Source: a bacterium (GTDB taxonomy: Bacteria; Patescibacteriota; Minisyncoccia; Phycocordibacterales; Zambryskibacteraceae). Taken from it: a stretch of DNA of 64,000 nt. A model generated the notes under the pieces. It had not been told where the DNA came from. It was given only the letters and a program-made list of their open reading frames with translations, and searched no databases. Location: contig JAUSGI010000008.1 in the NCBI GenBank assembly GCA_030649135.1, forward strand, positions 81,935 through 145,934. Direction: 5' to 3'. How positions within the stretch are numbered: the stretch's first letter is position 1; each line of letters opens with the position of its first letter. A program made the position numbers and the translations under genes. Below, in pieces: positions 28,712 through 64,000 of this stretch.

Positions 28712-29602
28712 ATGAACAAAATAATCATTGCGCTGGCTGTAATCATGATTGCTGGTTTGGGTGTTTACTTTATAAACAAGAGTCCTACAAAGGTAGTAAA
28801 TCCTCCCGAAAGCCAGAATACTACTGCTACCACTACGCCCATAGCGAAAGAAGAAAATCCAAGCGAATCGATTATCGGTAAATCGGTCGAGAATCGCGAC
28901 ATCATCGCCTACCACTACGGCACCGGTGAGACGGAACTATTGTTTATTGGCGGGATACATGGCGGATATTCGTGGAATACGGCACTGGTCGCATTTGAGT
29001 TGATGGACTATCTCAAGGCAAGCCCCAATATCATTCCCAAGAATATAAAAGTGACGGTCATTCCGGTACTGAACCCGGACGGTTTGAATAAAGTTGTCGG
29101 CACTGCTGGTCGCTTTACCCCATCGGATGTGCCGTCGCCAATATCCGCCACGGTGGCTGGTCGCTTTAACGCCAATACCGTTGACCTTAATCGTAACTTC
29201 GACTGTGACTGGAAAGCTTCAGGCACATGGCAAAGCAAAACCGTCAGCGGCGGAAGCAGGGCTTTCTCCGAACCCGAAACCCGGGCAATCAAAAGCTACG
29301 TAGAATTAAACAAACCAGACGCAGTCGTGACCTGGTATAGTGCCGCAGGGGGTGTCTATGCCTCCGAGTGCGGTAAGGGCATTTCCGCCGAAACCCGGGC
29401 TATCACAAAAGAATTTGCCGATACCTCCGGCTATCCTGCTTTTGATGATTTCGACTTCTATGAGGTAACGGGCGACATGGTCAATTGGTTTGCCAAGAAT
29501 AATATCCCAGCCATCAGCGTGCTTCTCACGAACCACACAGACACCGAATGGACAAAAAATCAGAAAGGCATCCAGGCTCTCCTCAAGTATTACGTCAAAT
29601 AA
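28712..29602 (+). CDS. Secreted M14 / AstE-AspA-superfamily zinc-peptidase-like protein (paralog 1)
   Basis: TM anchor, then 'GGIHGGYSWN' and 'VDLNRNFDCDW' (M14-like DxNRNF motif). The canonical HxxE appears altered. Confidence 0.5.
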   Translation: MNKIIIALAVIMIAGLGVYFINKSPTKVVNPPESQNTTATTTPIAKEENPSESIIGKSVENRDIIAYHYGTGETELLFIGGIHGGYSWNTALVAFELMDYLKASPNIIPKNIKVTVIPVLNPDGLNKVVGTAGRFTPSDVPSPISATVAGRFNANTVDLNRNFDCDWKASGTWQSKTVSGGSRAFSEPETRAIKSYVELNKPDAVVTWYSAAGGVYASECGKGISAETRAITKEFADTSGYPAFDDFDFYEVTGDMVNWFAKNNIPAISVLLTNHTDTEWTKNQKGIQALLKYYVK

Positions 29603-30471
29603 TGCCCAGGAAGGTTATTGTTCCGGTTGTCATTGTCATCTTGGGTATTGGTGCGTTTGTGCTGTTTAATTTTTACGGAAAATCTAGAGAAGCGCCATCG
29701 ATAGTAGACTTAGAGCCCAAGTGGCCCCAATTCGAAGTCATCGGCCAATCCGTCGAGGGGCGCAAAATTGAAAGTTATACATATGGAGACGGAGATAAAT
29801 ATGTGCTGTTCGTGGGTGGCATCCACGGGGGTTACGAGTGGAACAGTGTACTCCTCGCTTATCAATTCATCGACTACTTGGCGGCCAATCCTACTACCGT
29901 ACCCCCCAATTTAACTATCGCAGTAATACCTTCGGCTAATCCTGACGGAGTCTATAGAGTGGTAAGCAAAGAAGGTCGTTTTACCAGCACCGATGTTTCT
30001 ACCGACAAAGAAACCCTGGCCTCGGGACGTTTTAATGCGCACAAGGTAGACCTTAATCGCAACTTTGACTGCAATTGGAAACCGACAAGCCTGTGGCGAG
30101 AGAAGACCGTGAGTGCCGGCTCCGAGCCATTCTCCGAGCCGGAAGCAATGGCACTGCGAACATTTGTTTTAGAAAACAAACCGGATGCCGTTATCTTTTG
30201 GCATAGTCAATCCAACGCTGTGTACGCATCAGAGTGCCAGTCAGGTATTCTTCCGGAAACACTTGATATCATGAACGCCTACTCGCGTGCGTCAGGATAC
30301 CAGGCGGTCAAGTCATTTGACAGTTACGATGTCACAGGCGACTCTGAAGGGTGGCTCGCTTCTATCGGTATCCCGTCCATTACGGTCGAGCTTAAAGACC
30401 ACGAGAACATAGAGTGGGAGAAGAACCTAGCCGGTATCAAAGCTATACTCGGATACTATTTGACAAAATAA
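29602..30471 (+). CDS. Secreted M14 / AstE-AspA-superfamily zinc-peptidase-like protein (paralog 2)
   Basis: Same architecture ('GGIHGGYEWN', 'VDLNRNFDCNW'). The start is the ATG overlapping the upstream stop (TAATG). The ORF is open back to 29548. Confidence 0.5.
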   Translation: MPRKVIVPVVIVILGIGAFVLFNFYGKSREAPSIVDLEPKWPQFEVIGQSVEGRKIESYTYGDGDKYVLFVGGIHGGYEWNSVLLAYQFIDYLAANPTTVPPNLTIAVIPSANPDGVYRVVSKEGRFTSTDVSTDKETLASGRFNAHKVDLNRNFDCNWKPTSLWREKTVSAGSEPFSEPEAMALRTFVLENKPDAVIFWHSQSNAVYASECQSGILPETLDIMNAYSRASGYQAVKSFDSYDVTGDSEGWLASIGIPSITVELKDHENIEWEKNLAGIKAILGYYLTK

Positions 30472-40747: not shown

Positions 40748-41727
40748 GAACGTAGTATATCAGATACTATTTTGTTAACCTCGTTTGCGTTGTTCGTTTC
40801 CATAAGTTTGGCGCGTAAATCCCCTGCTTTATCAAAGCCCGTAACGTAGGCCTTAAAATGTTTCTTCATCACAGAAAAGTTTTTGTACCCACCGAGCAGT
40901 TCTTCAAATAACTTTGTGTGCTCAACCAGCACCCGCAGTTTTTCTTCGGTTGCCGGAACATATCCTTCCACAAATAGCCACGGGTTTCCGAAAATGGCCC
41001 GGCCGAGCATGACACCATCACAGCCCGTCTCTTCGACTCTCATCCTTGCTTCTTTCAAATCTTTAACATCCCCATTACCCAAAATTAAAGTGTCTTTACC
41101 ACTTGCATCACGAATCTCGACTGCCAGTTTGACAAACTCCCAACGAGCGGGCACCTTCGACATTTCTTTCCTGGTACGAGCATGAATGGTAACCATCGCC
41201 ACTCCCTCTTTAAGCATTTCTGACAGCCAGCTCTCCAGGTCAGGACGACTGTACCCTATACGAGTTTTGACCGAGACAGGTAGTGTGCTAGCCCCTTCTT
41301 TAGCCGCCCTTACAAGCTCCCGAGCCAGCACCACGTTCTTCATAAGTGATGCGCCGGCACCTTGTTTCTCGATACTTTTGTCCGGACAACCCATATTTAT
41401 ATCGACACCATCAAAGCCAAGCTCCTTTGCGAGCTCGGCGGCTTTTTTCATATGTTCCGGAGAGGAGGTAAAGAATTGCGCCACGATTGGCCGCTCCGCT
41501 TCGCTATATTCCAGATTCTTCAAAAGTTTCTTTTTCCCCTCTTCCGGCGCAAGTGCCAAGCCGTCGGCAGAAGTAAATTCTGTCCACATCACGGCGGGTT
41601 TACCCCGCCCACCTAGGCGGGGCGAGCCGTACTTAGCGATTATTCTGCGAAAAGCGGCATCCGTAACATCCGCCATGGGAGCGAGGACGAAAACAGGTTT
41701 TTCTATTTTCTGCCAGAAATTATCCAT
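40744..41727 (-). CDS. dus: tRNA-dihydrouridine synthase, carrying an in-frame 10-aa palindromic insertion
   Basis: 'FVLAPMADVTDAAFRRII', 'MWTEF' and the TIM-barrel Dus family. The inserted 'SPRLGGRGKP' lies between the conserved 'AKYG' and 'AVMWTEF' and is encoded by the palindrome at 41603-41622. Confidence 0.8.
   Translation of the reverse strand: MDNFWQKIEKPVFVLAPMADVTDAAFRRIIAKYGSPRLGGRGKPAVMWTEFTSADGLALAPEEGKKKLLKNLEYSEAERPIVAQFFTSSPEHMKKAAELAKELGFDGVDINMGCPDKSIEKQGAGASLMKNVVLARELVRAAKEGASTLPVSVKTRIGYSRPDLESWLSEMLKEGVAMVTIHARTRKEMSKVPARWEFVKLAVEIRDASGKDTLILGNGDVKDLKEARMRVEETGCDGVMLGRAIFGNPWLFVEGYVPATEEKLRVLVEHTKLFEELLGGYKNFSVMKKHFKAYVTGFDKAGDLRAKLMETNNANEVNKIVSDILRS
41603..41622. repeat. 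REP-like palindrome CCCCGCC-CACCTA-GGCGGGG, in-frame inside dus
   Basis: 'ccccgcccacctaggcgggg', with an adjacent ggcggg-ttta-ccccgcc half overlapping at 41594-41609. Confidence 0.7.
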
Positions 41728-44068
41728 TCACGTCCTTTTCCGTCAATTCTATTTCCGAGCCTGAAGTAATTTCACCGGATATCATCTTCTTGGCAATAAC
41801 CTGTTCAACAGTCTCCTGTATGGCGCGATTAAGCGGCCGGGCACCGAACTTCGGGTCCATACCTTTTTTGGTTAGAAATGATATCAAAGAGTCGCTGATT
41901 TTAAGAGTGATGCCTTGTTTCTTCAGACGTAAGGTGAGGTGGGACAATAAGCGTTTAGACACCTCACGTAAAGATGCTTCGTCGAGGGGATGGAATAGTA
42001 TCACGCCGTCAAAGCGATTCAATAACTCCGGTTTGAAAATTCCCTTGGCGATTATCTCATTAATAATCGTTTCGCGCGCCAGGGAAAGGTCCTTACCGGA
42101 CTTGACGTATTCAAAGATGAGGTCACTCCCAGCGTTGGAGGTGGCGACAATGATGACATTTCTGGCACTCACCTTTTCGCCCCGCATGTCCGAAAAGATT
42201 CCCTCATCTATAATCTGGAGAAATAAGTCCAGTACTTTCGAATCTGTTTTTTCAAATTCATCAAGCAAAAGAACGCCATACGGGTTCTCACGAAGCAAAG
42301 TAGTAAGCGTCCCCGGCGTCTTGGACTCAAATGAGCCTATCAATCTGTTTAACGAGTCCGGAGCATTATATTCGGACATGTCGAGACGAAGTAATTTGGA
42401 TGCTTGGCCGAAAAAGACTTCCCCCAAAGCTTTAGCCGTTTCCGTTTTACCAACTCCGGTAGGGCCGATAAACAGAAAAGAGCCGGCGGGTCTTAACGGA
42501 TTGCCTATGCCGGAGCGGGCGCGTCTGACAGCGTCGCTCACCGCCTTAATCGCATCATCTTGACCCACAATCCTCTCCTTGAGAATAATCTCAAGATTCA
42601 AGAGCTTGTCTTTCTCTTCCGGTTTGACAAAACCGGTTGGTATGCCGGTTTTAGACTTGACCGCGGAGAGAATGTCTTCCTTATTCACTATCCCCCTTCC
42701 ATCTTGGCTCACTTTCGCTGACGATGTCGCTATAAGATCCATGGCGCTGTCAGCAAGCGGTCTGTCCACAAAATATTGTTTGGATGCGGCCACAGCTTCA
42801 GAGAGCGCCGGGTAGGAAATCAAAATATTCATTTGTTTCTCCAAATGGTTGACCTCCGATTCAAGCATTTGCACCAACGCGTCTTCATCGACCGGCAAGA
42901 CATTTACTTTTTCAAAATGTTGTTTAATCTCGCCCAAGGGTTCGAGCAGACGCTGGTATTCCTCGGTATTGGAGACGCCCACAATCTGCATCTGCGACGA
43001 AGAGAGAAAGGGACTTAACAGGGCCAGCACAGAAACTCCGTAACTATTGCCCGCCGACAAAAAAGCGGCCATATTCGGTATGACGAATATGACATTACCG
43101 GCCCTTTCGGACTCTTGCAGCACCTTTATCAGTTCGCGTTCCAATATCTGACCATTACTTGCCGCCGCGGAAAGAGTGGAGATTTCAAAAACCCATATTT
43201 GTTTGTTGCTTAATGCGGCAGACACTTCGTCTTTCTCTATAAGTTTGTGGAGTTCCTCAAGCACTTCCATCTTCCCTACCCCGTCGTCACCGACAAGCAA
43301 AGCATTGGCTTCATGCGACCGGGACAGAGCAATTTCCAGAAGCTTGGCTTCTTCGATATGGTACCCTTCCTCACCCATTGAGTCGGAGATTATAAGTGGA
43401 CGGGCATACTTCATCAGAGAAAATGATTTTCCATACGACCAATCCCGGCCTATGGGGTCTATTTTGAAAAGATTGTCTTTGCCCCACCATCTTTTTGATT
43501 TCAAGATATTAAATCTGACTGACGCGGTCCATGTCGCCGCTCCCAGAAATTCTTCCTCCGTAACGTGATGAGTGAGAATAAAGTTCTTGAATTCGATATC
43601 GGAAGTAAGCAATCCTCCTAGATATCCACGAAGGATGGAATGGCCTCTAGTTAACTTGAAAGAGGCCGATGTTACCTTAGACTTTCTGTTCGATAAAAAG
43701 TTCTTCTGGGATTCCTGGTCTATGCCACAACGCCAAAGTATTTCCCTTCCCAACTTGGCCGACATGAAGCCGTAAGTTAAATCGCCTTCCGGAGAACCGA
43801 AAACTATCAAGGCGAGCTCACAGGCAAATCTACCGGTATCTTTGGAACGCTTAAAATAAAGAGAGTAAAAGAAACAATCAAACAAAGAGAGTATGAGCCA
43901 TAACGAGAAAAAGGCGAGACCAAGACCTATGGACCATATTGAAGTAATAGCGAATAATAAAATAAGGACGGTCTTCACAATACCGCGCGCACGTCGCGGT
44001 AAGGTTTGCTCAAGCAGATAAACCGGCTTCCAGGGGGTAAGTGTTTTCTTTAATGTTTCATAATGCAT
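41720..44068 (-). CDS. Membrane-anchored Clp/Hsp100-family AAA+ ATPase (ClpC/ClpA-like) with a degenerate D1 module
   Basis: Two N-terminal TM helices. D1 Walker A is degenerate ('LLVGDDGVGKMEV'). D2 is intact: Walker A '[14 protein letters not shown]', Walker B 'LLLDEFEK', sensor 'IIVATSN', R-finger 'GARPL'. Confidence 0.7.
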   Translation of the reverse strand: MHYETLKKTLTPWKPVYLLEQTLPRRARGIVKTVLILLFAITSIWSIGLGLAFFSLWLILSLFDCFFYSLYFKRSKDTGRFACELALIVFGSPEGDLTYGFMSAKLGREILWRCGIDQESQKNFLSNRKSKVTSASFKLTRGHSILRGYLGGLLTSDIEFKNFILTHHVTEEEFLGAATWTASVRFNILKSKRWWGKDNLFKIDPIGRDWSYGKSFSLMKYARPLIISDSMGEEGYHIEEAKLLEIALSRSHEANALLVGDDGVGKMEVLEELHKLIEKDEVSAALSNKQIWVFEISTLSAAASNGQILERELIKVLQESERAGNVIFVIPNMAAFLSAGNSYGVSVLALLSPFLSSSQMQIVGVSNTEEYQRLLEPLGEIKQHFEKVNVLPVDEDALVQMLESEVNHLEKQMNILISYPALSEAVAASKQYFVDRPLADSAMDLIATSSAKVSQDGRGIVNKEDILSAVKSKTGIPTGFVKPEEKDKLLNLEIILKERIVGQDDAIKAVSDAVRRARSGIGNPLRPAGSFLFIGPTGVGKTETAKALGEVFFGQASKLLRLDMSEYNAPDSLNRLIGSFESKTPGTLTTLLRENPYGVLLLDEFEKTDSKVLDLFLQIIDEGIFSDMRGEKVSARNVIIVATSNAGSDLIFEYVKSGKDLSLARETIINEIIAKGIFKPELLNRFDGVILFHPLDEASLREVSKRLLSHLTLRLKKQGITLKISDSLISFLTKKGMDPKFGARPLNRAIQETVEQVIAKKMISGEITSGSEIELTEKDVNG

Positions 44069-44482: not shown

Positions 44483-45298
44483 TTAATCTTTGAATTTGTA
44501 GAATACTTTATTTTCGGTACGCAAATCGAGGTAGCGTATCCTGTCGAAGAAATCACTTTGGGCTTTGATGGCGGGGTCGGAGAGAAACGCCTCCAAGTTC
44601 GAGCGGATAAGGACGAGATCGTCCTCCCTTCGCCATATAATCTGACCTCCCTCGGACAGCCCGAGCTTGTAGTCCTCGCTTCCGACTTCCATGGTCAAAG
44701 GTTGAATCTTGAGTGCCGCCAAATTTTCTATAAACTTTGAAAGTAATCGAAAATCTTGAATAGGAGTGAATCTTTTACCCACGGGACTCTCGGCCTGGTT
44801 AGGAGCAAGGTAGGCAAAGTAGACTCCATCCGAAAAGGAGGGCGCGGGAGCAAAAATGAATCCCTCTTCGTCCAGGAAAAAACATTCGGGAGTGCAGTAA
44901 AGGGCAAAAGGCATACGCTCGAGAACTGCTACGAGCAACTCCTGTTGTTCCCCTAAATCCAAATTAACAGACTTGAACCTAGGAAATTCTCCAAGCAGAT
45001 TTTCTCTGATGGCACGCCGCGGATAGATGAGAACATTGGCCCGGGGAATAAGCCAAAGATAGTAACCTGCAAGCCCGCGTCTGACCGTTTGGATAATTTC
45101 TTCTTTATCAACCACATTCTCTCCCAAAATCGTGACATCGGTTATTTGAAAGCGTTCCAGACGAGAAAGATAGATTAGCCAAGAAAGAATGGACAGGAAT
45201 CCAATAGAAAGCAGGGTAAGCCGGATAAGTCTCCTCCTTTTCTTCTTCTCATAGAATTCTCGCGAGTTAAGGACCCTGCCACTCGAAACAATTTTCAT
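44483..45298 (-). CDS. ftsQ: Cell-division protein FtsQ/DivIB (POTRA domain)
   Basis: A basic N-terminus and a TM helix are followed by POTRA-like 'FQITDVTILGENVVDKEEI'. The gene is in a dcw-cluster-like position beside the mur-ligase fragment. Confidence 0.65.
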   Translation of the reverse strand: MKIVSSGRVLNSREFYEKKKRRRLIRLTLLSIGFLSILSWLIYLSRLERFQITDVTILGENVVDKEEIIQTVRRGLAGYYLWLIPRANVLIYPRRAIRENLLGEFPRFKSVNLDLGEQQELLVAVLERMPFALYCTPECFFLDEEGFIFAPAPSFSDGVYFAYLAPNQAESPVGKRFTPIQDFRLLSKFIENLAALKIQPLTMEVGSEDYKLGLSEGGQIIWRREDDLVLIRSNLEAFLSDPAIKAQSDFFDRIRYLDLRTENKVFYKFKD

Positions 45299-45328
45299 AA
45301 GAGAAGTATAACAAATCCTTTAACAATT

Positions 45329-45910
45329 TTAGAAAAAAGAAATGTGATGAGGCCGATACATCGAGTACTCAAGACAGAGAACCTCGTGTGATGGGTCCAT
45401 GTAGTTGACTATCCAAGACGATAGATTGAGTGGGGTCAGACGCTTCGAATAAATGCGTCCGCACTCAAACCGTTTGGATAGAATGCTCTGGATCATGGCG
45501 GCGGTTGTCGTCTTACCGACACTTCCAGTAACTCCCACTACTAGTGGGTTGAGAATCGAAAGAACGTACTCCCGCAGTTGATTGATTGCGAGAAACACGT
45601 CGTGAACACGGATATATTTCAGGCCGTACATGTCGCCGTCGGAGACTCTGCCATCGACCACGAAGACGATATTGCTTCTTTGTCGAAGTTTGGGGATATT
45701 TTTGGTACGATCAAACGCGTTGATGTACCAACCCTCTTCTTTCGGATTGTCTTTATAGACTACGAAGTAGAGTTCGTTTCCCTCTCTAACACCGCCTGTC
45801 TCAAACTCCCTGATGTAGGCGACGTTGAGTCTCATGAAAGATGTTCCGTCACTGACGTTGTGAACCTCTGCTTCCCAGATGGCTCTGATCGTCTCGATAC
45901 TTATTTGCAC
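45329..45910 (-). CDS. Mur-ligase (MurF-like) N-terminal fragment, truncated
   Basis: 'LVVGVTGSVGKTTTAAMI' is the Mur-ligase P-loop, preceded by a MurF-like N-terminal domain. The ORF stops after about 193 aa against about 450 aa expected, and no remainder of the gene is visible nearby. Confidence 0.55.
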   Translation of the reverse strand: MQISIETIRAIWEAEVHNVSDGTSFMRLNVAYIREFETGGVREGNELYFVVYKDNPKEEGWYINAFDRTKNIPKLRQRSNIVFVVDGRVSDGDMYGLKYIRVHDVFLAINQLREYVLSILNPLVVGVTGSVGKTTTAAMIQSILSKRFECGRIYSKRLTPLNLSSWIVNYMDPSHEVLCLEYSMYRPHHISFF

Positions 45911-45920
45911 TTTGTTCTCC

Positions 45921-46628
45921 CTAGGTCAGGTTGACGATGACTGAAACAAGCTCATCAGTGTGAGTGTTGGCGATATCGTGTCCGCCGCCCTCGATGACGT
46001 GGAGTTTGTGGTGGCTCTTGCGCGAAGCAAGAAAATCCTTTACCGACTCAAGCGGAGTAGCAGAATCCTTCTCTCCGTAGATCAGGACGAGTTCGTCCGA
46101 CACTTTCAGCAGGTCCTCTCTGAGATCGAGACCGACGATGTTGCGGTAGGTTTCTCTCATCACGGGACTGGCCTTAGTGTAGTAGGGATTTCTCACCACG
46201 CTCGTAAGATAGAAGTCTCTGGCAAGTACAATGAGTCTTTCCGGCAGGATGGCTTTGAGCCAACCGATCGAGACACTCTTTTTCTCGTACCGGCGAAGAA
46301 TGGCTGGGGAGACGAGAAAGGTCTTGACTGTCTTGTTGCCCGAGACTGCCTTCCAGTGAAGCAAAATCGCTCCGCCGAAAGAGTATCCGAGCACGATGTC
46401 CGGTTTCTCCCTCTGTATAACCCGATCTAAATACCGGCTAAAATCAGAAAGAACCCATGGGTGTTCTGGTTCTTTCTCCCCGCAGAATCCGGGAAGATTG
46501 AAGCGAACAACCTCAAAGTATGTCGAGAGTTCTTCCACGAAGCGTGAGCGATTGCTCCACGCATCCGTGCATCCAGACGATGTATAGTTATCGTGATTCC
46601 AACCGTGGACAAGGAGAATCTTTTTCAT
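45921..46628 (-). CDS. Alpha/beta-fold hydrolase
   Basis: 'LLVHGW' and the GxSxG motif 'GYSFGG', plus a C-terminal 'GGGHD'. Confidence 0.6.
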   Translation of the reverse strand: MKKILLVHGWNHDNYTSSGCTDAWSNRSRFVEELSTYFEVVRFNLPGFCGEKEPEHPWVLSDFSRYLDRVIQREKPDIVLGYSFGGAILLHWKAVSGNKTVKTFLVSPAILRRYEKKSVSIGWLKAILPERLIVLARDFYLTSVVRNPYYTKASPVMRETYRNIVGLDLREDLLKVSDELVLIYGEKDSATPLESVKDFLASRKSHHKLHVIEGGGHDIANTHTDELVSVIVNLT

Positions 46629-46720
46629 GTTTTCACCTTTCGTGGGTTTGTTGTTAAGGATCTGATGTCTGCAGTGGACACTACATTAAATAAATACATT
46701 CGTCAAGATAGTGTTCTTTT

Positions 46721-47986
46721 TTATTTCCTTATTTCAGAGAGTCCGTTCATATAGGGCACCAGTACCTCGGGAATCCTGATGGAACCATCAGCCTGTTGAA
46801 AATTCTCAATCAGAGAAACCAGAATGCGCGGAGTGGGCGCAGCAGTGGCGTTGAGTGAGTGGGCGTATTTAATTTTGCCGTCATCATCTTTATATCGAGT
46901 GTTGAATCTTCTGGTTTGGAAGTCATGATAGTACGATGCGCTGGCAATCTCTCTGTACCTGCCTTCTTTGGGCACCCAGAGTTCGGTATCATAAGATTTG
47001 ACGTGAGCACCCTTGAGGTCGCCGGTACATATCGCTAGCTGTTGATACGGAATACCGAGTGACTCGATAAACTCTTCCATATTTCTGTTTAGTTCTTCAT
47101 GGAACTTCACGGACTCTTCGTGGCTTGCCTCACACAAAATAAGTTGTTCCAGTTTGAAAAACTCATTGACCCGAATCAAACCTTTTACATCTTTTGAATA
47201 GCTGCCGGCTTCGCGGCGATAACACGGCGAAAACGCCAGATACCTCTTTGGCAACTCTGCCTTGTCGAGAATCTCTTCCGCATGATAGGCCATCATCGGC
47301 ACTTCGGCCGTGCCGGCCAGATAATCACCGTCTTGAGTTTGATAAATGTCTTCGGCTCCTCCCGGCAAGTGACCGGTACCGTAGAAGAAATTTTTATGAA
47401 CAATCGCTGGGGCAATGAATGGCGTAAAGTTTTTTCGCAGGAAGAAGTGTTGCGCATAATTCCAGATTGCCCAAGAGAGCATGGCTCCAGCATTTTTCAA
47501 AAAGTAGCCCCGAAAGCCGTGCACCTTGACTCCCCTTTCAAAATCAACCATATCGAGTCCAATCATGAGCTCGGTATGATCTTTAGGCTCAAAGTCGAAC
47601 TTAGGCTTGTCACCCCAAGTTTTGATTACAACATTTTCTTCTTCGCTTGCGCCTTCGGGAACAGAAGCATCCGGCACGTTAGGGACAGAGAGCATCAGTC
47701 CCTGCCATTCATGCATCACTTCCTTTAATGCCTCTTCCTCTCGCCCAAGCTCTACCTTCAGCACTTTCATCTTTTCCAAAATATTGTCGCGTTCTTCGGA
47801 ATTTGCCTTAACTATTGCGTTGTTAGCCACCTTCTGTTCAGCTCGCTTCTCTTCCACTTTGCCTAAGAGCTTTTTACGCTTGTCATCGACTGCGATAAGT
47901 CTATCGATATCGCATTCGATATGTTTCTTTTTAGCCGCGAGTTCGACTAGTTCTCTATTTTCCCTAATAAACTTAATATCAAGCAT
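46721..47986 (-). CDS. serS: Seryl-tRNA synthetase
   Basis: N-terminal coiled-coil arm plus class II core motifs 'FRGYFL' and 'YRREAGS'. The start is the internal ATG 'MLDIKFIREN'. An antisense ORF at 47607 was judged spurious. Confidence 0.9.
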   Translation of the reverse strand: MLDIKFIRENRELVELAAKKKHIECDIDRLIAVDDKRKKLLGKVEEKRAEQKVANNAIVKANSEERDNILEKMKVLKVELGREEEALKEVMHEWQGLMLSVPNVPDASVPEGASEEENVVIKTWGDKPKFDFEPKDHTELMIGLDMVDFERGVKVHGFRGYFLKNAGAMLSWAIWNYAQHFFLRKNFTPFIAPAIVHKNFFYGTGHLPGGAEDIYQTQDGDYLAGTAEVPMMAYHAEEILDKAELPKRYLAFSPCYRREAGSYSKDVKGLIRVNEFFKLEQLILCEASHEESVKFHEELNRNMEEFIESLGIPYQQLAICTGDLKGAHVKSYDTELWVPKEGRYREIASASYYHDFQTRRFNTRYKDDDGKIKYAHSLNATAAPTPRILVSLIENFQQADGSIRIPEVLVPYMNGLSEIRK

Positions 47987-48008
47987 AATACGATACAATA
48001 TTATCATA

Positions 48009-48866
48009 ATGATTCGTGAACTTCTCCCACCTGATTTCCCCGCACTTCTCAAAGAAATTCCTGACGCCCCGCAACGGCTTCGTTACGAAGGCATGTTACC
48101 GAAAGATGGCAATAAGCTTTTGGCTGTCGTCGGTTCAAGAAAGTACTCGAGCTATGGCAGAGAATCATGCGAGTCTATTATCTCCGGACTGTCCGGTTCT
48201 CCCATCACAATCGTCTCCGGCTTGGCACTCGGTATCGATTCTATAGCCCACCGCGCCGCTCTGCGCGCTGGCCTCCAGACTATCGCCATCCCGGGCTCCG
48301 GTCTTGATAGGAAAGTCTTACACCCCCACTCACATGTTAATCTCGCGGAAGAAATTATCGAAAATGGTGGCGGACTCATTTCGGAATACGACGATACGAT
48401 GCCAAGTGGCGCGTGGGCCTTCCCAAGAAGAAACAGAATCATGGCTGGGATGTGCCACGCCACTATCGTCATCGAAGCGGAGAAGCGTTCTGGGACTCTC
48501 ATAACTTCACGGCTCGCCACAGAATATAACCGTGAAGTTGGTTGCGTTCCCGGCCCAATTGATTCTCCCACTTCCGATGGGCCGCATATGCTTATCCGCC
48601 TCGGCGCCGCACTCATCCGAGATGCCAATGATGTACTGGAACTTCTAGGACTCCAGAGAAAGGACGAGAACCTAACACTCGTAGATATAGAAGAGCTAAG
48701 TGATGAAGAGAAAATTTTTATAAAAATCTTAGAGGAACCATGTTCACGCGATGAACTTATCCGTAAATCACAACTCGATATCGGCAACGCTAGCGCTACT
48801 TTGTCACTTCTGGAGATTAAGGGTTTAATTAGCGAAGAACTGGGTGAAGTACGAAAGACGTTTTAA
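48009..48866 (+). CDS. dprA: DNA-processing protein DprA (Smf)
   Basis: 'AVVGSRKYSSYG', 'IVSGLALGIDSIAHRAAL' and a C-terminal winged helix. The start is placed at 'MIRELLPP'. Confidence 0.8.
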   Translation: MIRELLPPDFPALLKEIPDAPQRLRYEGMLPKDGNKLLAVVGSRKYSSYGRESCESIISGLSGSPITIVSGLALGIDSIAHRAALRAGLQTIAIPGSGLDRKVLHPHSHVNLAEEIIENGGGLISEYDDTMPSGAWAFPRRNRIMAGMCHATIVIEAEKRSGTLITSRLATEYNREVGCVPGPIDSPTSDGPHMLIRLGAALIRDANDVLELLGLQRKDENLTLVDIEELSDEEKIFIKILEEPCSRDELIRKSQLDIGNASATLSLLEIKGLISEELGEVRKTF

Positions 48867-52967: not shown

Positions 52968-53926
52968 ATACTGAAATTGGCGACAGAATAGAGAGACTCG
53001 TCGTCTTCGGATTTTACTGGCTCGTCCTCTGCGAGAATTTTGTCCTCCTCTGTCAGAGCTGGAACGTCTGCTATAGACATGTTTACTTCATGTGAGTTTT
53101 TAAATTCTTTATCCACAATAATTCTTTCAAGTAGAGCTCGTAGGTCATCTTTATTGAAAAAGTCTATCGTCACTCGCCCGCCTTCTTCCTTCTTTTCTAT
53201 TCTCACTCGAGTACCCAATTTCTCTTTAAACAAGCCCTCGATATCTATAAGTTCTTGGTCGATCAACTTGCGGGCACGCTCGACCGCAATGTGACGTGCG
53301 ATACCTTCCGCCTCCCTGACGTTGAGTTTTTTGAAAATAATTTCTTTGAAAAGCGTTTCTTGCTCCTGTGGCCTGTCGGTAAGCATCATGAGTGGCCGGG
53401 TATGGCCCTCGCTAATCTTATTTTCCGATAGAGCGTTAATAATATATTCCGGCAAAGAAAGAATGCGCAGAGAGTTTGAGACAAACTCACGACTCTTCCC
53501 TACTTTCTTGCCGATCTCGTGATGCTTGAACTTAAATTCTTTCGACAGGCGGTCGAAAGCGCGGGCACGGTCAACGGGACTAAGGTCCTCGCGCTGAATG
53601 TTTTCGATGATAGCGAGCTCAAGTTTCATTAGGTCAGTTTCCTCACCATCGCGAATGAGTACTGGTACTTGCGCGAGGCCAGCTAGGCGAGCGGCGCGGA
53701 GGCGCCGCTCGCCGGCCACCAATTCATATTCCACACCAATCCCCCCCTCCTCCTTTTCCACTTCTTTACGCGTCACCACAAGAGCCTGAAGCACGCCATA
53801 TTGGCGGATGGAATCCGCCAAACTCTTGAGCTGAACTTCATCGAAGTCACGGCGGGGCTGGTATGGGTTCGGCTTAATTTTATCCACCTCTATCCAGAAA
53901 ATAGAGTCGTTATAGAATCGGGACAT
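52964..53926 (-). CDS. parB: ParB/Spo0J-family partition protein
   Basis: ParB box 'GVLQALVV...ELVAGERRLRAARLAG', an HTH and an acidic C-terminus. Confidence 0.8.
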   Translation of the reverse strand: MSRFYNDSIFWIEVDKIKPNPYQPRRDFDEVQLKSLADSIRQYGVLQALVVTRKEVEKEEGGIGVEYELVAGERRLRAARLAGLAQVPVLIRDGEETDLMKLELAIIENIQREDLSPVDRARAFDRLSKEFKFKHHEIGKKVGKSREFVSNSLRILSLPEYIINALSENKISEGHTRPLMMLTDRPQEQETLFKEIIFKKLNVREAEGIARHIAVERARKLIDQELIDIEGLFKEKLGTRVRIEKKEEGGRVTIDFFNKDDLRALLERIIVDKEFKNSHEVNMSIADVPALTEEDKILAEDEPVKSEDDESLYSVANFSI

Positions 53927-53969
53927 GCAAATATTATATCAAATGTTTTTATGCTATTCTATGGTAGAC

Positions 53970-54052
53970 GCTGGAGTGATGGAATGGCAGACATGCAGCA
54001 CTCAAAATGCTGTGGGCGCAAGCCCGTGTGGGTTCAAGTCCCACCTCCAGCA
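53970..54052 (+). tRNA. tRNA-Leu (anticodon CAA)
   Basis: Hand fold. Acceptor GCTGGAG/CTCCAGC, 3-bp D-stem, anticodon stem CAGCA/TGCTG with loop CTCAAAA, a 15-nt variable arm (GGGC-GCAA-GCCC), T-arm GTGGG-TTCAAGT-CCCAC. No CCA is encoded. Confidence 0.8.
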
Positions 54053-54053
54053 C

Positions 54054-54632
54054 ATGCTAAATCTTACCGATAAAACTTTGGTGGCATATGTTATTGGTAT
54101 CGCTCTTGGCGATGGAAATCTTTCTAATCCGAATGGACGTGCAGTTAGATTAAGAATAACCTGTGACTCTAAATATCCCTTTTTGATTTCTAAGATTGAA
54201 CAGTCATTAAAGAAATTGGCCCCTAAAAATAAAGTCTCTCGAATCAATAGAGGAGATAATGCCATAGATGTCAGCTGCTATTCAAATCAATGGGAGCAAT
54301 TACTCGGTTGGAAGGCCTACGGTGGCTCAAAAATAAGACAATCGGTTCGCATACCTAGTTGGATATTTAGAAATAAAAAACTTTGTCAGGCTTGTTTGTG
54401 CGGACTATGGGAGACCGATGGTTCGGTTTACAAAGACAGAAAATATATAACAGCAAATTTTGTGACTCAGATTCCAAGCCTCGCACAAGGTGTGGCGAAG
54501 ATGATTCTTAAAACCCGCTACAAGGCTTCTATACAAAAATTGGTCTTATCTGATAACAGAGAAAAATTTACTTTCAGAATTCATAGAAATGCTTCTCAGT
54601 TTATTAAAGAAATGTCTATAGAGAAAAGGTGA
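54054..54632 (+). mobile_element. Free-standing double-motif LAGLIDADG homing endonuclease gene
   Basis: Motif 1 'VIGIALGDGNLS' and motif 2 'LCGLWETDGSV'. The ATG sits 2 nt after the tRNA-Leu 3' end. The frame is open back through the tRNA to 53925. Confidence 0.7.
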
Positions 54633-61641: not shown

Positions 61642-64000
61642 CTATTTCAGCGCAGGTTCTCTGCTTGATACAACTGTACTCACATGACCCGAGCGTTTGC
61701 TCCTCTTAATATCGAAAGTAAATTGGCCATCTTTCACATCAACCGAAACCGTACCACCGGAAAGCACTTTATTGGATATCATCATGGAAGCCACCGGGTT
61801 CAGAATTTTTTCCTGAATCAGACGCTTCAGGGGTCTTGCTCCGTACTGTGGATTATAACCTTCTGCGGCCAAGAGTTCCGACACCGACTCCATGACCGAA
61901 AGGTTGATTTCCTTTTCTGCGAGACGCTTCTTAATGATATCGATTTGGATATTAACAATTTCTTTGATTGCCTCCTTGGAGAGTATGTCGAAGATAATAA
62001 TATCGTCAAGACGGTTGAGAAATTCCGGTCGGAAATGCTCTTTGAGGGTCGAGAGCACTTTCTCTTTAACACCCTCGTAAGTTTCCTTCTCGCCACTGTT
62101 GAAGCCGATGGATTGCATCTTGTCTATGTATTGGGCACCAATGTTTGAGGTCATGATGATGACCGTGTTTTTGAAATTAATAACCCTACCCTTGGCATCG
62201 GTCAGACGACCATTATCGAGGATTTGCAATAAAATGTTAAACACCTCCGGATGCGCCTTCTCAATCTCATCGAAAAGGATGACCGAATATGGCCTGTGTC
62301 GCACAGACTCGGCAAAACTGGAACCTTCTTCGAAGCCGACGTATCCCGGTGGCGCGCCAATCAGTTTGGAGACGGAATGCTTTTCCATAAACTCCGACAT
62401 ATCTACGCGGATGAGTGCCCGTTCATCGTCAAACATAAATTCCGCCAAGGCCTTAGTCAGCTCGGTCTTACCCACCCCAGTCGGACCAAGAAAGATGAAA
62501 GAACCGATAGGACGATTGGGGTCGGAGATACCGGCGCGCGAACGCTTGACGGTGTCAGCAATCTTTTTGACTGCCTCGCCTTGACCGACAATACGCTTCT
62601 TGAGGAATTCTTCCATTCGGGAAAGTTTGGCCGCTTCTTCTTCAAGCATTCTGGAAACCGGGATACCGGTCCACCGACTGACTACCAGCGCGATATCGGG
62701 TGCGGTAATTTCTTCTTTCAGAATGCTCCTGGAACTTTGAAGTTTTTTCAGACGCTTGGCTTTGGCTTCTAATTCTTTCTCCAGACCCGGTATCTGGCCG
62801 TATCGAAGTTCCGCCGCGCGGGAAAGGTCGGCGCGTGCCTCCGCCGCTTCGGCCTCAAGTCGCAGAGTTCCCAGAGTTTTTTTAATCTCCTTGATTTCCC
62901 CTACCGTTTCTTTCTCATTTTTCCACTTCAACTCTATCTCCGAAGTCTTCTCGCGCAAATCGGCAATATCTTTGTCAATAACTTTCAGTCGTGCTTTCAC
63001 TTTAGGGTTCCCGGACTCTTTCTTAAGTGCTTCCTTCTCGATATCTAACTTCATAATCTTGGAGTGGGCATCCTGAAGCACCGGCGGCATATTCTCGAGA
63101 GAAATTTTGAGAAACGAAGATGCCTCGTCTATAAGGTCTACCGCTTTATCCGGCAAAAACCTGTCAGTGATATAACGCGAAGAGAGATTAACGGCTGCTT
63201 GGATAGAATCATCGGTAATACGCACCCCATGATAGAGTTCGTACCTTTCTTTCAATCCACGCAAGATGGTCACGGCATCATCGATAGAAGGTTCCTGAAC
63301 ATAAACGGGCTGGAAACGGCGGGTCAAAGCCGGGTCTTTCTCGATATGTTTCTGATATTCACGCAGAGTTGTGGCACCAATAGCCCGTAGTTCCCCTCGA
63401 GCGAGTGAAGGTTTGAGCATATTGGAGGCATCCATAGCCCCTTCCGCGGCACCGGCGCCGACGATGGTATGAATTTCATCTATAAACAGAACAATTTTGC
63501 CTTCCGATTTTTCGATTTCTTTAATGATATTTTTGAGCCGCTCTTCAAATTCGCCGCGGTACTTGGTGCCGGCAATCAAGAGTCCGATATCGAGAGACAC
63601 CAATTCCTTATCCCGCAGAGATTCCGGGACGTTGCCGCTTGCCATGCGTAGTGCCAGTCCTTCGGCAATGGCAGTCTTACCGACGCCCGCTTCACCGATG
63701 AGAATCGGATTATTTTTGGTACGGCGGGAAAGAATTTGGATAATGCGCGAGATTTCATCATCGCGACCAATAACCGGGTCGAGTTTATTTGCCTTGGCAA
63801 GCATGGTTAGGGAACGGGTGTATTTGGAAAGAGATTTATATTTCTTCGATTCTTTCGGCTCGGTGGGGCTGGTCTTTTTCAGTTCCTCAAGCACCTTTAG
63901 AATTGTTTGTCTGTCGATTTTAAATTTTAAAAGAAGTTCACGCGCTTCTCCCGGAACATCGAGTACCGCGATAAATAGATGCTCGGTGGAAACAAATTCA
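61642..64000 (-). CDS. clpB: Chaperone ClpB (5' end beyond the window edge)
   Basis: D1 Walker A '[10 protein letters not shown]', Walker B '[12 protein letters not shown]', a long middle coiled coil and D2 '[14 protein letters not shown]'. The frame stays open upstream of the annotated GTG to the window end, with N-domain-like '...[10 protein letters not shown]...'. Confidence 0.9.

What the first reader, a model, noticed from the sequence alone, without database searches (positions are those of the whole stretch)
45329..45910. Orphaned MurF-like N-terminal fragment beside ftsQ
The ORF has a MurF-type N-terminal domain and the Mur-ligase P-loop ('VVGVTGSVGKTTTAAMI'). It terminates after 193 aa, less than half of a Mur ligase. 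The next gene downstream is an unrelated alpha/beta hydrolase. It sits in a vestigial dcw-cluster context next to ftsQ. It is either a decaying pseudogene, indicating loss or relocation of part of the peptidoglycan pathway, or a frameshifted gene.
Basis: seen in the sequence. Interest (0 to 1): 0.5.

Follow-up and report, generated by a model that had tools for sequence, protein, structure and literature searches.

The report
Truncated accessory MurF-like ligase remnant
This ORF is the dead first 40% of a MurF-like ligase gene that sits, with its intact partner hydrolase gene, in a two-gene unit inserted between serS and an ftsQ-like gene; it is not the organism's housekeeping murF, so it does not show cell-wall pathway loss, but it points to an uncharacterised hydrolase-ligase module common in CPR bacteria.

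Summary
The ORF is real: minus strand, 45329-45910, 193 aa, Mur-ligase P-loop. It is a 3'-truncated remnant, not a frameshifted gene. Homology to about 457-aa relatives stops at base 45342 (codon 190). The last three codons and the stop come from the native ftsQ-like leader. The missing 265 aa are absent from all 64 kb.

The parent gene is not housekeeping murF. It belongs to a distinct MurF-like family (about 75-90 clusters at 50% identity, mostly CPR/Patescibacteria). Members score 60-105 bits against TIGR01143 (cutoff 288.6) and lack a recognisable Mur_ligase_C. One contig carries a family member directly beside a canonical murF.

True syntenic relatives of this genome have serS abutting the ftsQ-like gene. 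So the promoter, hydrolase and ligase stub (45342-46706) form an inserted accessory unit, not a dcw vestige.

The ligase is disrupted by different lesions in 11 of 36 complete copies. The hydrolase is degraded in only 1 of 31.

Verdict: an ordinary pseudogene inside a mildly interesting, uncharacterised module.

The parts
45329..45910 (-). Truncated MurF-like ligase ORF (193 aa; NCBI MDO8590256.1). It holds domain 1, the linker helix and the first three strands of the ATP-binding central domain.
   Evidence: Domain boundaries are read from the AlphaFold model of the 84%-identical intact relative P0048.
45342..45910 (-). The part homologous to full-length family members (codons 1-190). Homology ends at ...CCTCATCACAT.
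   Evidence: blastn and tblastx against L002, L094-L107, L010 and others all stop at 45341/45342. Motif coordinates.
45329..45341 (-). Fortuitous tail: the third base of the Ile-190 codon (45341), codons S-F-F and the TAA stop, read from non-ligase DNA.
   Evidence: Relatives continue ...HHIE(V/A)LT.... This tract aligns with the native upstream region of the ftsQ-like gene in L132.
45299..45341 (-). Native leader/promoter region of the ftsQ-like gene (TTCTAAAATTGTTAAAGGATTTGTTATACTTCTCTT). It forms the right-hand junction of the insertion.
   Evidence: Homologous to L132's ...TTCTAAGTTTACCAAAGGATTTGTTATACTTTCCTTA directly before its ftsQ-like ATG.
45921..46628 (-). Intact alpha/beta-fold serine hydrolase (235 aa, GYSFGG nucleophile motif). 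It is the conserved operon partner of the ligase family.
   Evidence: Pfam Abhydrolase_6/_1. 79-89% identical to hydrolases directly upstream of intact ligases in L094, L096-L099, L104, L106. dN/dS about 0.07-0.13.
46629..46706 (-). Promoter-like TTGACG (46701-46706) / TAGTGT (46678-46683) plus a leader of about 50 nt. It is conserved with cassette-bearing relatives and marks the left end of the inserted unit.
   Evidence: Alignments. Homology to relatives begins here. Coordinates.
46721..48052 (-). serS (seryl-tRNA synthetase), the left backbone flank. Its stop is at 46721-46723, 14 nt before the cassette promoter.
   Evidence: 68-79% identical to serS of L128, L130, L132.
44483..45298 (-). 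FtsQ-like (POTRA) gene, the right backbone flank.
   Evidence: It directly follows serS in L128 and L130.

Best explanation
The ORF is a non-functional 3'-truncated remnant of an accessory MurF-paralogue ligase.

The parent gene belongs to a self-contained two-gene transcription unit: promoter, alpha/beta hydrolase, a MurF-like ligase of about 457 aa, then a terminator. This unit is widespread in CPR/Patescibacteria. In this genome a copy lies between serS and the ftsQ-like gene, which are directly adjacent in syntenic relatives.

Everything after ligase codon 190 is missing: two thirds of the ATP-binding domain, the whole C-terminal domain and the terminator. Translation runs three codons into the ftsQ-like leader and stops.

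Shown: the truncation point, the absence of the remainder from the window, the insertion into a conserved backbone, the ligase-hydrolase partnership, and the paralogy to canonical murF.

Inferred:
- The stub has no ligase activity. It lacks the family's near-invariant N206, H211 and K227 and all of domain 3.
- The loss was recent.
- The cassette promoter now probably reads through into the ftsQ-like gene.
- The intact module acts on peptidoglycan precursors or muropeptides. The ligase would add an amino acid or peptide that is not D-Ala-D-Ala, and the hydrolase would act on the same substrate. I give this last step about 35-40% confidence.
For: 1. Truncation. Homology to all relatives ends at 45341/45342. 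The C-terminal 333 aa of the 80%-identical relative L002 has no match anywhere in the window beyond its first 66 residues. Only 30 nt lie before the next gene.

2. Full-length family. More than 130 clusters at 90% identity are mostly 455-473 aa. About 75-90 clusters at 50% identity score above canonical MurF. Intact single-frame copies were found in 25 metagenomic or genomic loci.

3. Fold. The AlphaFold2 model of P0048 (84% identical to the fragment) has pLDDT 94 and pTM 0.91, with three domains. The best PDB matches are MurF, TM 0.73-0.75 at 17-18% identity. The fragment ends inside domain 2.

4. Not housekeeping murF. Against TIGR01143, intact members score only 60-105 bits (cutoff 288.6) and match model positions 35-300 only. 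No Pfam Mur_ligase_C is found. On L114 a family member is directly followed by a canonical murF N-terminus, 160 bits over 166 aa.

5. Hydrolase partnership. The hydrolase lies within 25 nt upstream of, or overlapping, the ligase in about 30 loci. It lies downstream in four others. Ligase-hydrolase fusions exist: P0102, P0108, P0114.

6. Insertion. L128, L130 and L132 share the order ParB-RelA/SpoT-TopA-DprA-SerRS-FtsQ-like-129aa-ClpB-like-Dus-HolB with the window. In them serS abuts the ftsQ-like gene (4-nt overlap in L130, 19 nt in L128) or is separated by a different 133-aa ORF (L132). Cassette-bearing relatives share no flanks with the window.

7. The junction is reproduced in an independent assembly.

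8. Recurrent decay. Eleven of 36 complete ligase copies carry different lesions: deletions, frameshifts, nonsense codons and P-loop substitutions. At least four are seen in independent assemblies. Only 1 of 31 hydrolases is degraded. Short forms in the global library diverge at different points.
Against: The ORF still looks healthy. It has no internal stop or frameshift in 190 codons and keeps its ribosome-binding site and promoter. All family-invariant residues up to position 190 are retained. Pairwise dN/dS against intact relatives (0.08-0.20) is no higher than between intact copies. So either the truncation is recent or the stub is still under selection.

Whether the unit arrived whole and was then deleted, or arrived already truncated, is unresolved. 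No microhomology or repeat marks the junction.

That serS and ftsQ-like were adjacent ancestrally, rather than relatives having lost the cassette, is a parsimony argument from three relatives.

Only 64 kb of the genome was visible. A separately encoded C-terminal half or a second intact copy elsewhere cannot be excluded.

Paralogy to canonical murF on a single contig was shown for the about 429-aa subfamily (L114), not for the about 457-aa subfamily to which the window's copy belongs.
Confidence: 0.85

Rival explanations
1. The 193-aa product is a functional stand-alone protein (MurF-like domain 1 plus a P-loop stub) retained by selection, for example as a nucleotide- or substrate-binding partner of the hydrolase.
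For: The ORF, ribosome-binding site and promoter are intact. dN/dS is 0.08-0.20, similar to intact copies. All invariant residues up to position 190 are kept.
Against: The cut falls inside the central domain. Only 3 of its strands remain, and the family's near-invariant N206, H211 and K227 are lost. The last residues and the stop come from unrelated intergenic DNA. No relative shares this length; other short forms end at many different positions with unrelated tails. The nearest sampled relative is at dS 0.36 or more, so the selection test has little power.
Confidence: 0.07
2. This is an assembly artefact or a minority variant. The real population carries a full-length ligase, and the contig joins two places wrongly at 45342.
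For: Related cassettes from co-occurring genomes share long conserved stretches that break assemblies. Three contigs of one metagenome end inside the ligase at aa 222-228. The MAG and the Logan contig may derive from the same reads.
Against: A second assembly of SRR13727527 gives the identical 2.8 kb across both junctions. Both flanks (serS on one side; ftsQ-like, the 129-aa ORF and ClpB-like on the other) are in the order seen in relatives. A chimera would therefore need two compensating mis-joins.
Confidence: 0.05
3. One reading: a decaying housekeeping murF in a vestigial dcw cluster, marking loss or relocation of part of peptidoglycan synthesis.
For: The best family match is murF. An FtsQ-like gene is adjacent. 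JGI names some family members 'UDP-N-acetylmuramyl pentapeptide synthase'.
Against: Intact family members fail the MurF threshold and lack a recognisable Mur_ligase_C. A canonical murF sits next to a family member on L114. A Paceibacterota genome has a canonical murF next to ftsI (L037: 277 bits, with Mur_ligase_C). The stub lies in an insertion between serS and ftsQ-like. About 30% of copies are broken, which is implausible for an essential gene.
Confidence: 0.03

Closest known systems
MurF (UDP-MurNAc-tripeptide:D-Ala-D-Ala ligase; TIGR01143; PDB 4qf5, 4cvm, 3zl8)
   Same: Intact relatives share the three-domain Mur-ligase fold; MurF is the best structural match over the whole length (TM 0.73-0.75). 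They share the P-loop GxxGKTT, the Mg-binding Glu (E181), the N...H motif (N206/H211), a conserved Lys (K227) and the Arg at the start of domain 3 (R331). The window fragment keeps only the first two of these.
   Different: 17-19% identity. TIGR01143 scores of 60-105 bits against a cutoff of 288.6, matching model positions 35-300 only. The C-terminal domain is not recognised by Pfam Mur_ligase_C, and the MurF DxYNANP-type motif is replaced by FDGD(V/A)T (the motif comparison rests on my own knowledge). Family-specific invariant motifs GW..FDR and R.YSKRLTPL. Obligate pairing or fusion with an alpha/beta hydrolase. Not in a dcw cluster. Co-occurs with canonical murF.
Accessory Mur-ligase paralogues that work with a partner enzyme (MurT/GatD lipid II amidotransferase; Mpl murein-peptide ligase with LdcA; CapB/PgsB; the cyanophycin synthetase M domain)
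   Same: These are Mur-ligase-fold enzymes recruited outside the core MurC-F series, encoded next to or fused with a second enzyme acting on the same substrate (established knowledge). MurT and cyanophycin synthetase appear as weak sequence matches.
   Different: None of these partners is an alpha/beta-fold serine hydrolase. MurT lacks a MurF-like domain 1 and has a DUF1727 C-domain. Sequence similarity to all of them is weaker than to MurF. No experimental function is known for this family, and two full-text searches found no description.
Ordinary bacterial pseudogene / gene remnant left by deletion
   Same: Less than half of the family length. It ends in unrelated DNA and lacks catalytic motifs. 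Sister copies carry independent frameshifts, nonsense codons and deletions.
   Different: It is annotated by NCBI as an ordinary 'Mur ligase family protein' rather than a pseudogene. It shows no sign yet of neutral drift.

Membership tests
MurF (TIGR01143, UDP-MurNAc-tripeptide--D-Ala-D-Ala ligase) | Whole-protein score at or above the curated cutoff (288.6 bits) | tested here: not met
   Fragment: 46.5 bits. Intact relatives P0048, P0015, P0120, P0102: 105.5, 94.4, 60.0 and 61.8 bits. For comparison, a canonical CPR MurF (L037) scores 277 bits, and a 166-aa canonical N-terminus (L114) scores 160 bits.
MurF (TIGR01143) | Three-domain architecture with a Mur_ligase_C (PF02875) domain | tested here: not met
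   The fragment ends at residue 190, inside domain 2. Intact relatives have a third domain by structure prediction, but it gets no PF02875 hit.
MurF (TIGR01143) | Location in a dcw / mur gene cluster as the single murF of the genome | tested here: not met
   The window has no other mur gene. The stub lies in an insertion between serS and ftsQ-like. A family member lies beside a canonical murF on L114. The rest of this MAG could not be searched.
Mur ligase superfamily (Pfam PF08245 Mur_ligase_M) | Pfam gathering score and the ATP-binding P-loop GxxGK(T/S) | tested here: met
   26.1 bits against a cutoff of 24, but only profile positions 1-68 of 200. P-loop GSVGKTT is present.
Mur ligase superfamily | Complete catalytic set (Mg-binding Glu, N...H motif, conserved Lys, domain-3 Arg) | tested here: not met
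   Only the P-loop and E181 are retained. N206, H211, K227, R331 and all later near-invariant positions are deleted.
Hydrolase-coupled MurF-like ligase family (unnamed; defined here) | Invariant motifs W61, GVTGSVGKTT, R152-x-Y-S-K-R-L-T-P-L, N169, E181-Y-S | tested here: met
   All are present in the fragment. It is 84% identical to intact P0048 over residues 1-190.
Hydrolase-coupled MurF-like ligase family | Alpha/beta hydrolase gene immediately adjacent (or fused) | tested here: met
   The hydrolase ends 10 nt upstream of the GTG start. The same arrangement holds in about 30 loci; fusions are P0102, P0108 and P0114.
Hydrolase-coupled MurF-like ligase family | Full length of about 427-473 aa | tested here: not met
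   193 aa; homology stops at codon 190.
Pseudogene / gene remnant | Truncated relative to intact homologues, with the missing part absent and the end lying in unrelated sequence | tested here: met
Pseudogene / gene remnant | Relaxed selection (dN/dS approaching 1) on the remnant | tested here: inconclusive
   Pairwise dN/dS is 0.08-0.20, like intact-intact pairs. The nearest relative is at dS 0.36 or more, so power is low.
FtsQ (neighbour gene 44483-45298) | Bitopic protein with an FtsQ-type POTRA domain (PF08478) | tested here: inconclusive
   No Pfam hit for the window protein itself. NCBIfam FtsQ E = 0.014. No PDB sequence match. The 46%-identical homologue P0384 passes PF08478.

The most novel reading that the evidence does not exclude
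The hydrolase-plus-MurF-like-ligase unit is an uncharacterised, horizontally exchanged accessory cell-wall system of CPR/Patescibacteria. It would be a promoter-to-terminator module that edits or salvages peptidoglycan stem peptides, for example by ligating a non-canonical amino acid or a scavenged host peptide onto a UDP-MurNAc-peptide, with the hydrolase trimming it. The ligase half would be repeatedly discarded while the hydrolase is kept, implying conditional benefit, perhaps host- or antibiotic-dependent.
Probability: 0.3. Interest if true: 0.55.

Novelty: new variant of a known kind. Interest (0 to 1): 0.33.

Why it matters
For this genome, the practical point is annotation. MDO8590256.1 is a gene remnant, and it should not be counted as MurF in metabolic reconstructions. 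Nor should its truncation be read as loss of peptidoglycan synthesis.

More broadly, COG-style pipelines already label some family members as 'UDP-N-acetylmuramyl pentapeptide synthase'. That could mislead pathway calls across CPR genomes.

The module itself is a cheap target for biochemistry. It is a MurF paralogue with a divergent third domain, tied by operon and by fusion to a serine hydrolase. It is often found near ddl, murA-like, murD/murL, VanX/VanY-like and canonical murF genes. It might reveal a new stem-peptide modification or salvage step in episymbiotic bacteria.

Tried and rejected
1. Frameshift rescue. tblastn of the missing 333 aa (from L002) against all six frames of the window found nothing beyond the first 66 residues. 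Rejected.

2. An early impression that every relative is broken. The first homologue search, using the truncated query, returned only 14 mostly short proteins. This was a sampling artefact. The family-specific metagenome scan and a full-length query found mostly intact copies.

3. GTDB scan. Only one true family member (L010) was recovered, and the window's own genome was not seen.

4. Riboswitch or structured leader upstream of the hydrolase. No Rfam match. RNAalifold gave -1.5 kcal/mol with no convincing covariation.

5. Anti-phage defence system. No PADLOC hit for ligase, hydrolase or fusion.

6. Compositional signature of the insertion. GC is 0.45-0.52, against 0.41-0.50 in the flanks. No signal.

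7. Relaxed selection on the stub. Not detected, but power is low.

8. Microhomology, target-site duplication or a terminator remnant at the junction. The T-rich tract after the junction resembles both the terminator tail of intact cassettes (L097) and L132's native ftsQ leader. Nothing decisive.

9. Literature. Two full-text searches found no description of a hydrolase-coupled MurF paralogue in CPR.

10. PDB sequence search for the FtsQ-like protein: no match.

Full report
**1. The observation**

The ORF is real but lies on the minus strand. It runs from a GTG start at 45910 to a TAA stop at 45329-45331 and encodes 193 aa. It contains VVGVTGSVGKTTTAAMI, the only Mur-ligase-type P-loop in any frame of the 64-kb window.

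Family matches are as follows:
- Pfam Mur_ligase_M just passes its threshold (26.1 against 24 bits) but covers only the first 68 of 200 profile positions.
- The best NCBIfam model is murF TIGR01143, at 46.5 bits against a cutoff of 288.6.
- The best PDB sequence matches are MurF chains.

In gene orientation, the alpha/beta hydrolase (45921-46628) is upstream, 10 nt away with a GGAG ribosome-binding site. The FtsQ-like gene (44483-45298) starts 30 nt downstream.

NCBI lists the product as MDO8590256.1, 'Mur ligase family protein', from a 216,895-bp MAG contig.

**2. Truncation, not frameshift**

A relative 80% identical at protein level (L002) aligns at 77% nucleotide identity from window 46706 down to 45342 and no further. 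tblastx against twelve further relatives stops at the same base. Relatives continue ...EYSMYRPHHI-EVLTRILRPDVGV... The window reads ...HHI-SFF-stop.

The remaining 267 residues of the L002 protein have no tblastn match anywhere in the window, and only 30 nt remain before the next gene. The roughly 40 nt after the breakpoint are homologous to the region directly upstream of the ftsQ-like gene in relative L132. The stop codon is therefore borrowed from native intergenic DNA.

An independent assembly of run SRR13727527 gives the identical sequence across both junctions.

**3. The parent family**

Searching with an intact member (L010, 457 aa) found more than 130 clusters at 90% identity, mostly 455-473 aa or about 427-435 aa. 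All carry only Pfam Mur_ligase_M.

A profile search of 1.84 billion representatives gave about 75-90 family clusters. Canonical MurF and MurE-MurF fusions followed at lower scores and matched only profile positions about 64-344.

An AlphaFold2 model of P0048 (457 aa, 84% identical to the fragment) is confident: pLDDT 94, pTM 0.91. Its best PDB matches over the full length are MurF structures (TM 0.73-0.75, 17-18% identity), followed by MurE.

The family keeps the P-loop, the Mg-binding Glu, the N...H motif, a conserved Lys and the domain-3 Arg. Even so, intact members reach only 60-105 bits on TIGR01143 and match only model positions 35-300. Their third domain is not recognised as Mur_ligase_C.

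On the model, the window fragment corresponds to domain 1, the linker helix and the first three strands of domain 2.

**4. The hydrolase is the partner, not a bystander**

A homologous alpha/beta hydrolase lies immediately upstream of the ligase, separated by at most about 25 nt or overlapping it, in roughly 30 loci. In four loci of the shorter subfamily it lies immediately downstream. Three protein clusters are ligase-hydrolase fusions of 600-688 aa.

Among the window's closest cassette relatives, homology begins at a conserved TTGACG/TA(A/G)TGT promoter plus leader about 85 nt upstream of the hydrolase. It ends about 35 nt after the ligase stop, at a hairpin terminator whose stem includes the stop codon. 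The unit is thus a promoter-to-terminator module, and it sits in unrelated flanks in different genomes.

**5. Not the housekeeping murF**

- On contig L114, a family member is directly followed by an ORF whose first 166 residues score 160 bits on TIGR01143 over model positions 1-177. That is a canonical murF.
- A Paceibacterota genome (L037) has a canonical murF (277 bits, with Mur_ligase_C) next to an FtsI-type PBP.
- Neighbours of the module are otherwise diverse. They include Ddl and YceG/MltG (L010), MurL and MurD (L009), three EPSP-synthase-fold (MurA-like) genes, two M15 VanX/VanY-like peptidases and three PGA_cap genes.

This is a modest hint of a peptidoglycan-related accessory role, not proof.

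**6. Genomic setting in the window**

Homologues of the FtsQ-like protein are named Parcubacteria, Zambryskibacteria or Minisyncoccia by their sources. They led to true syntenic relatives L128, L130 and L132. These share the order ParB-RelA/SpoT-TopA-DprA-SerRS-FtsQ-like-129aa-ClpB-like-Dus-HolB with the window. Identities to the window are 68-79% for SerRS and 76-84% for the ClpB-like protein.

In L130, serS and the ftsQ-like gene overlap by ATGA. In L128 they are 19 nt apart. In L132 a different 133-aa ORF, with its own promoter and terminator, lies between them.

The segment 45342-46706 in the window is therefore most simply an insertion into a variable spot of a conserved backbone. The window contains no other mur gene and no other classical dcw-cluster gene. 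It does hold FtsE/FtsX, an SLT-domain protein and two M14 carboxypeptidases elsewhere. The "vestigial dcw cluster" reading does not hold.

**7. Recurrent decay of the ligase**

Among 36 complete, non-redundant copies, 11 are disrupted, each differently:

| Locus | Lesion |
|---|---|
| Window | 3' deletion |
| L002 | 49-nt internal deletion |
| L003 | 1-nt frameshift |
| L099/L100 | TGA at codon 42, plus G-to-R beside the P-loop |
| L004 | about 170-codon internal deletion |
| L006 | 3' truncation at residue 245 |
| L112 | Nonsense codon, plus GSVAKTT in the P-loop |
| L114, L120, L126, L127 | Frameshifts |

The lesions in the window, L099, L004 and L006 are reproduced in independent assemblies.

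The hydrolase is intact in 30 of 31 loci. If lesions fell in proportion to gene length (2:1), all nine in loci with both genes complete would hit the ligase with probability of about 0.03.

Many short family representatives in the global library end with unrelated tails at different positions. The stub's length is therefore not conserved.

**8. Age of the lesion**

Pairwise dN/dS of codons 1-190 against intact relatives is 0.08-0.20, the same as among intact copies. The nearest relative is at dS 0.36. A long period of neutral evolution is excluded. A recent loss and a retained function cannot be separated with these data.

Synonymous divergence of hydrolase and ligase is discordant in several pairs. 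For L098/L104/L106 it is 0.2-0.5 against 0.03-0.05. That indicates recombination between cassettes.

**9. Verdict**

The fragment is a pseudogene-like remnant of an accessory MurF paralogue (confidence about 0.85).

|---|---|
| "Decaying pseudogene" | Right |
| Frameshift alternative | Excluded |
| Inference about the peptidoglycan pathway | Not supported |
| dcw-cluster context | Not supported |
| "Unrelated" hydrolase | Not supported |

As a finding it is ordinary. The moderately interesting by-product is an uncharacterised, apparently exchangeable hydrolase-ligase module of CPR bacteria whose ligase half is frequently lost. Two full-text searches found no published description of it.

Noticed in passing
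window 46629-46706 (minus); L002, L094, L096-L099, L104, L107 upstream of the hydrolase: A promoter-like TTGACG-17 nt-TA(A/G)TGT and a leader of about 50 nt (…AGATCCTTAACAAC…GAGGTGAAAACATG) are almost invariant among cassettes whose coding regions are only about 80% identical. There is no Rfam match and no convincing RNA fold, so it may be a protein-binding or translational control site.
   Followed up: partly
L094, L096, L097, L098, L104: 0-40 nt after the ligase stop: Intact cassettes end in a perfect hairpin (AGGCGCGTGA-loop-TCACGCGCCT plus a T-run) whose 5' arm includes the last codons and the stop codon of the ligase. Homology between genomes ends right after it. The window copy has lost this terminator, so the cassette promoter may read into the ftsQ-like gene.
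   Followed up: partly
L128 6981-7001; L130 7001-7004; L132 4515-5109; window 45299-46720: The serS / ftsQ-like junction is a variable spot. The genes overlap in L130 and are 19 nt apart in L128. L132 holds a different 133-aa ORF of unknown function with its own promoter and GC-rich terminator. The window holds the hydrolase-ligase unit.
   Followed up: partly
L098, L104, L106; window vs L094: Synonymous divergence of the hydrolase and of ligase codons 1-190 is strongly discordant: 0.2-0.5 against 0.03-0.05 in the first group, and 0.76 against 0.36 for window vs L094. This suggests recombination or gene conversion between cassettes of different genomes.
   Followed up: no
L092 vs L096: The two loci share flanking genes at 64-67% nucleotide identity, but in opposite orientation relative to the cassette. 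The unit appears inverted in place, or inserted twice at the same site.
   Followed up: no
L114 1640-2143; L009 1057-4981: Members of the shorter (about 429-aa) subfamily sit next to core mur genes. On L114 a canonical murF follows directly. On L009 the order is family member, a GNAT-like 400-aa protein, MurL epimerase, MurD.
   Followed up: partly
L105, L106, L107 (metagenome Ga0209542): Three separate contigs of one metagenome end inside the ligase at residues 222-228, and L102 starts at residue 158. Assemblies probably break at a stretch shared by several co-occurring genomes.
   Followed up: no
L108 1328-1537: This is the reverse case of decay. The ligase is intact, but only a remnant of about 70 aa of the hydrolase survives upstream.
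   Followed up: no
window 53925-54632 (+): A 235-aa ORF with a LAGLIDADG_3 homing-endonuclease-like domain lies head-to-head with parB. It is free-standing, not obviously inside an intron or intein.
   Followed up: no
window 28712-30471 (+); L130 13467-14816: Two tandem M14 zinc carboxypeptidase genes occur here. The same tandem pair occurs in relative L130 but at a different position (after holB), showing local rearrangement of the backbone.
   Followed up: no
window 41720-44068 and 61642-63894 (both minus): There are two ClpB/ClpC-like double-AAA+ genes within 20 kb. The first (782 aa) has a long, non-canonical N-terminal region with predicted membrane-like segments and is conserved next to the ftsQ-like gene and the 129-aa ORF in all relatives.
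   Followed up: no
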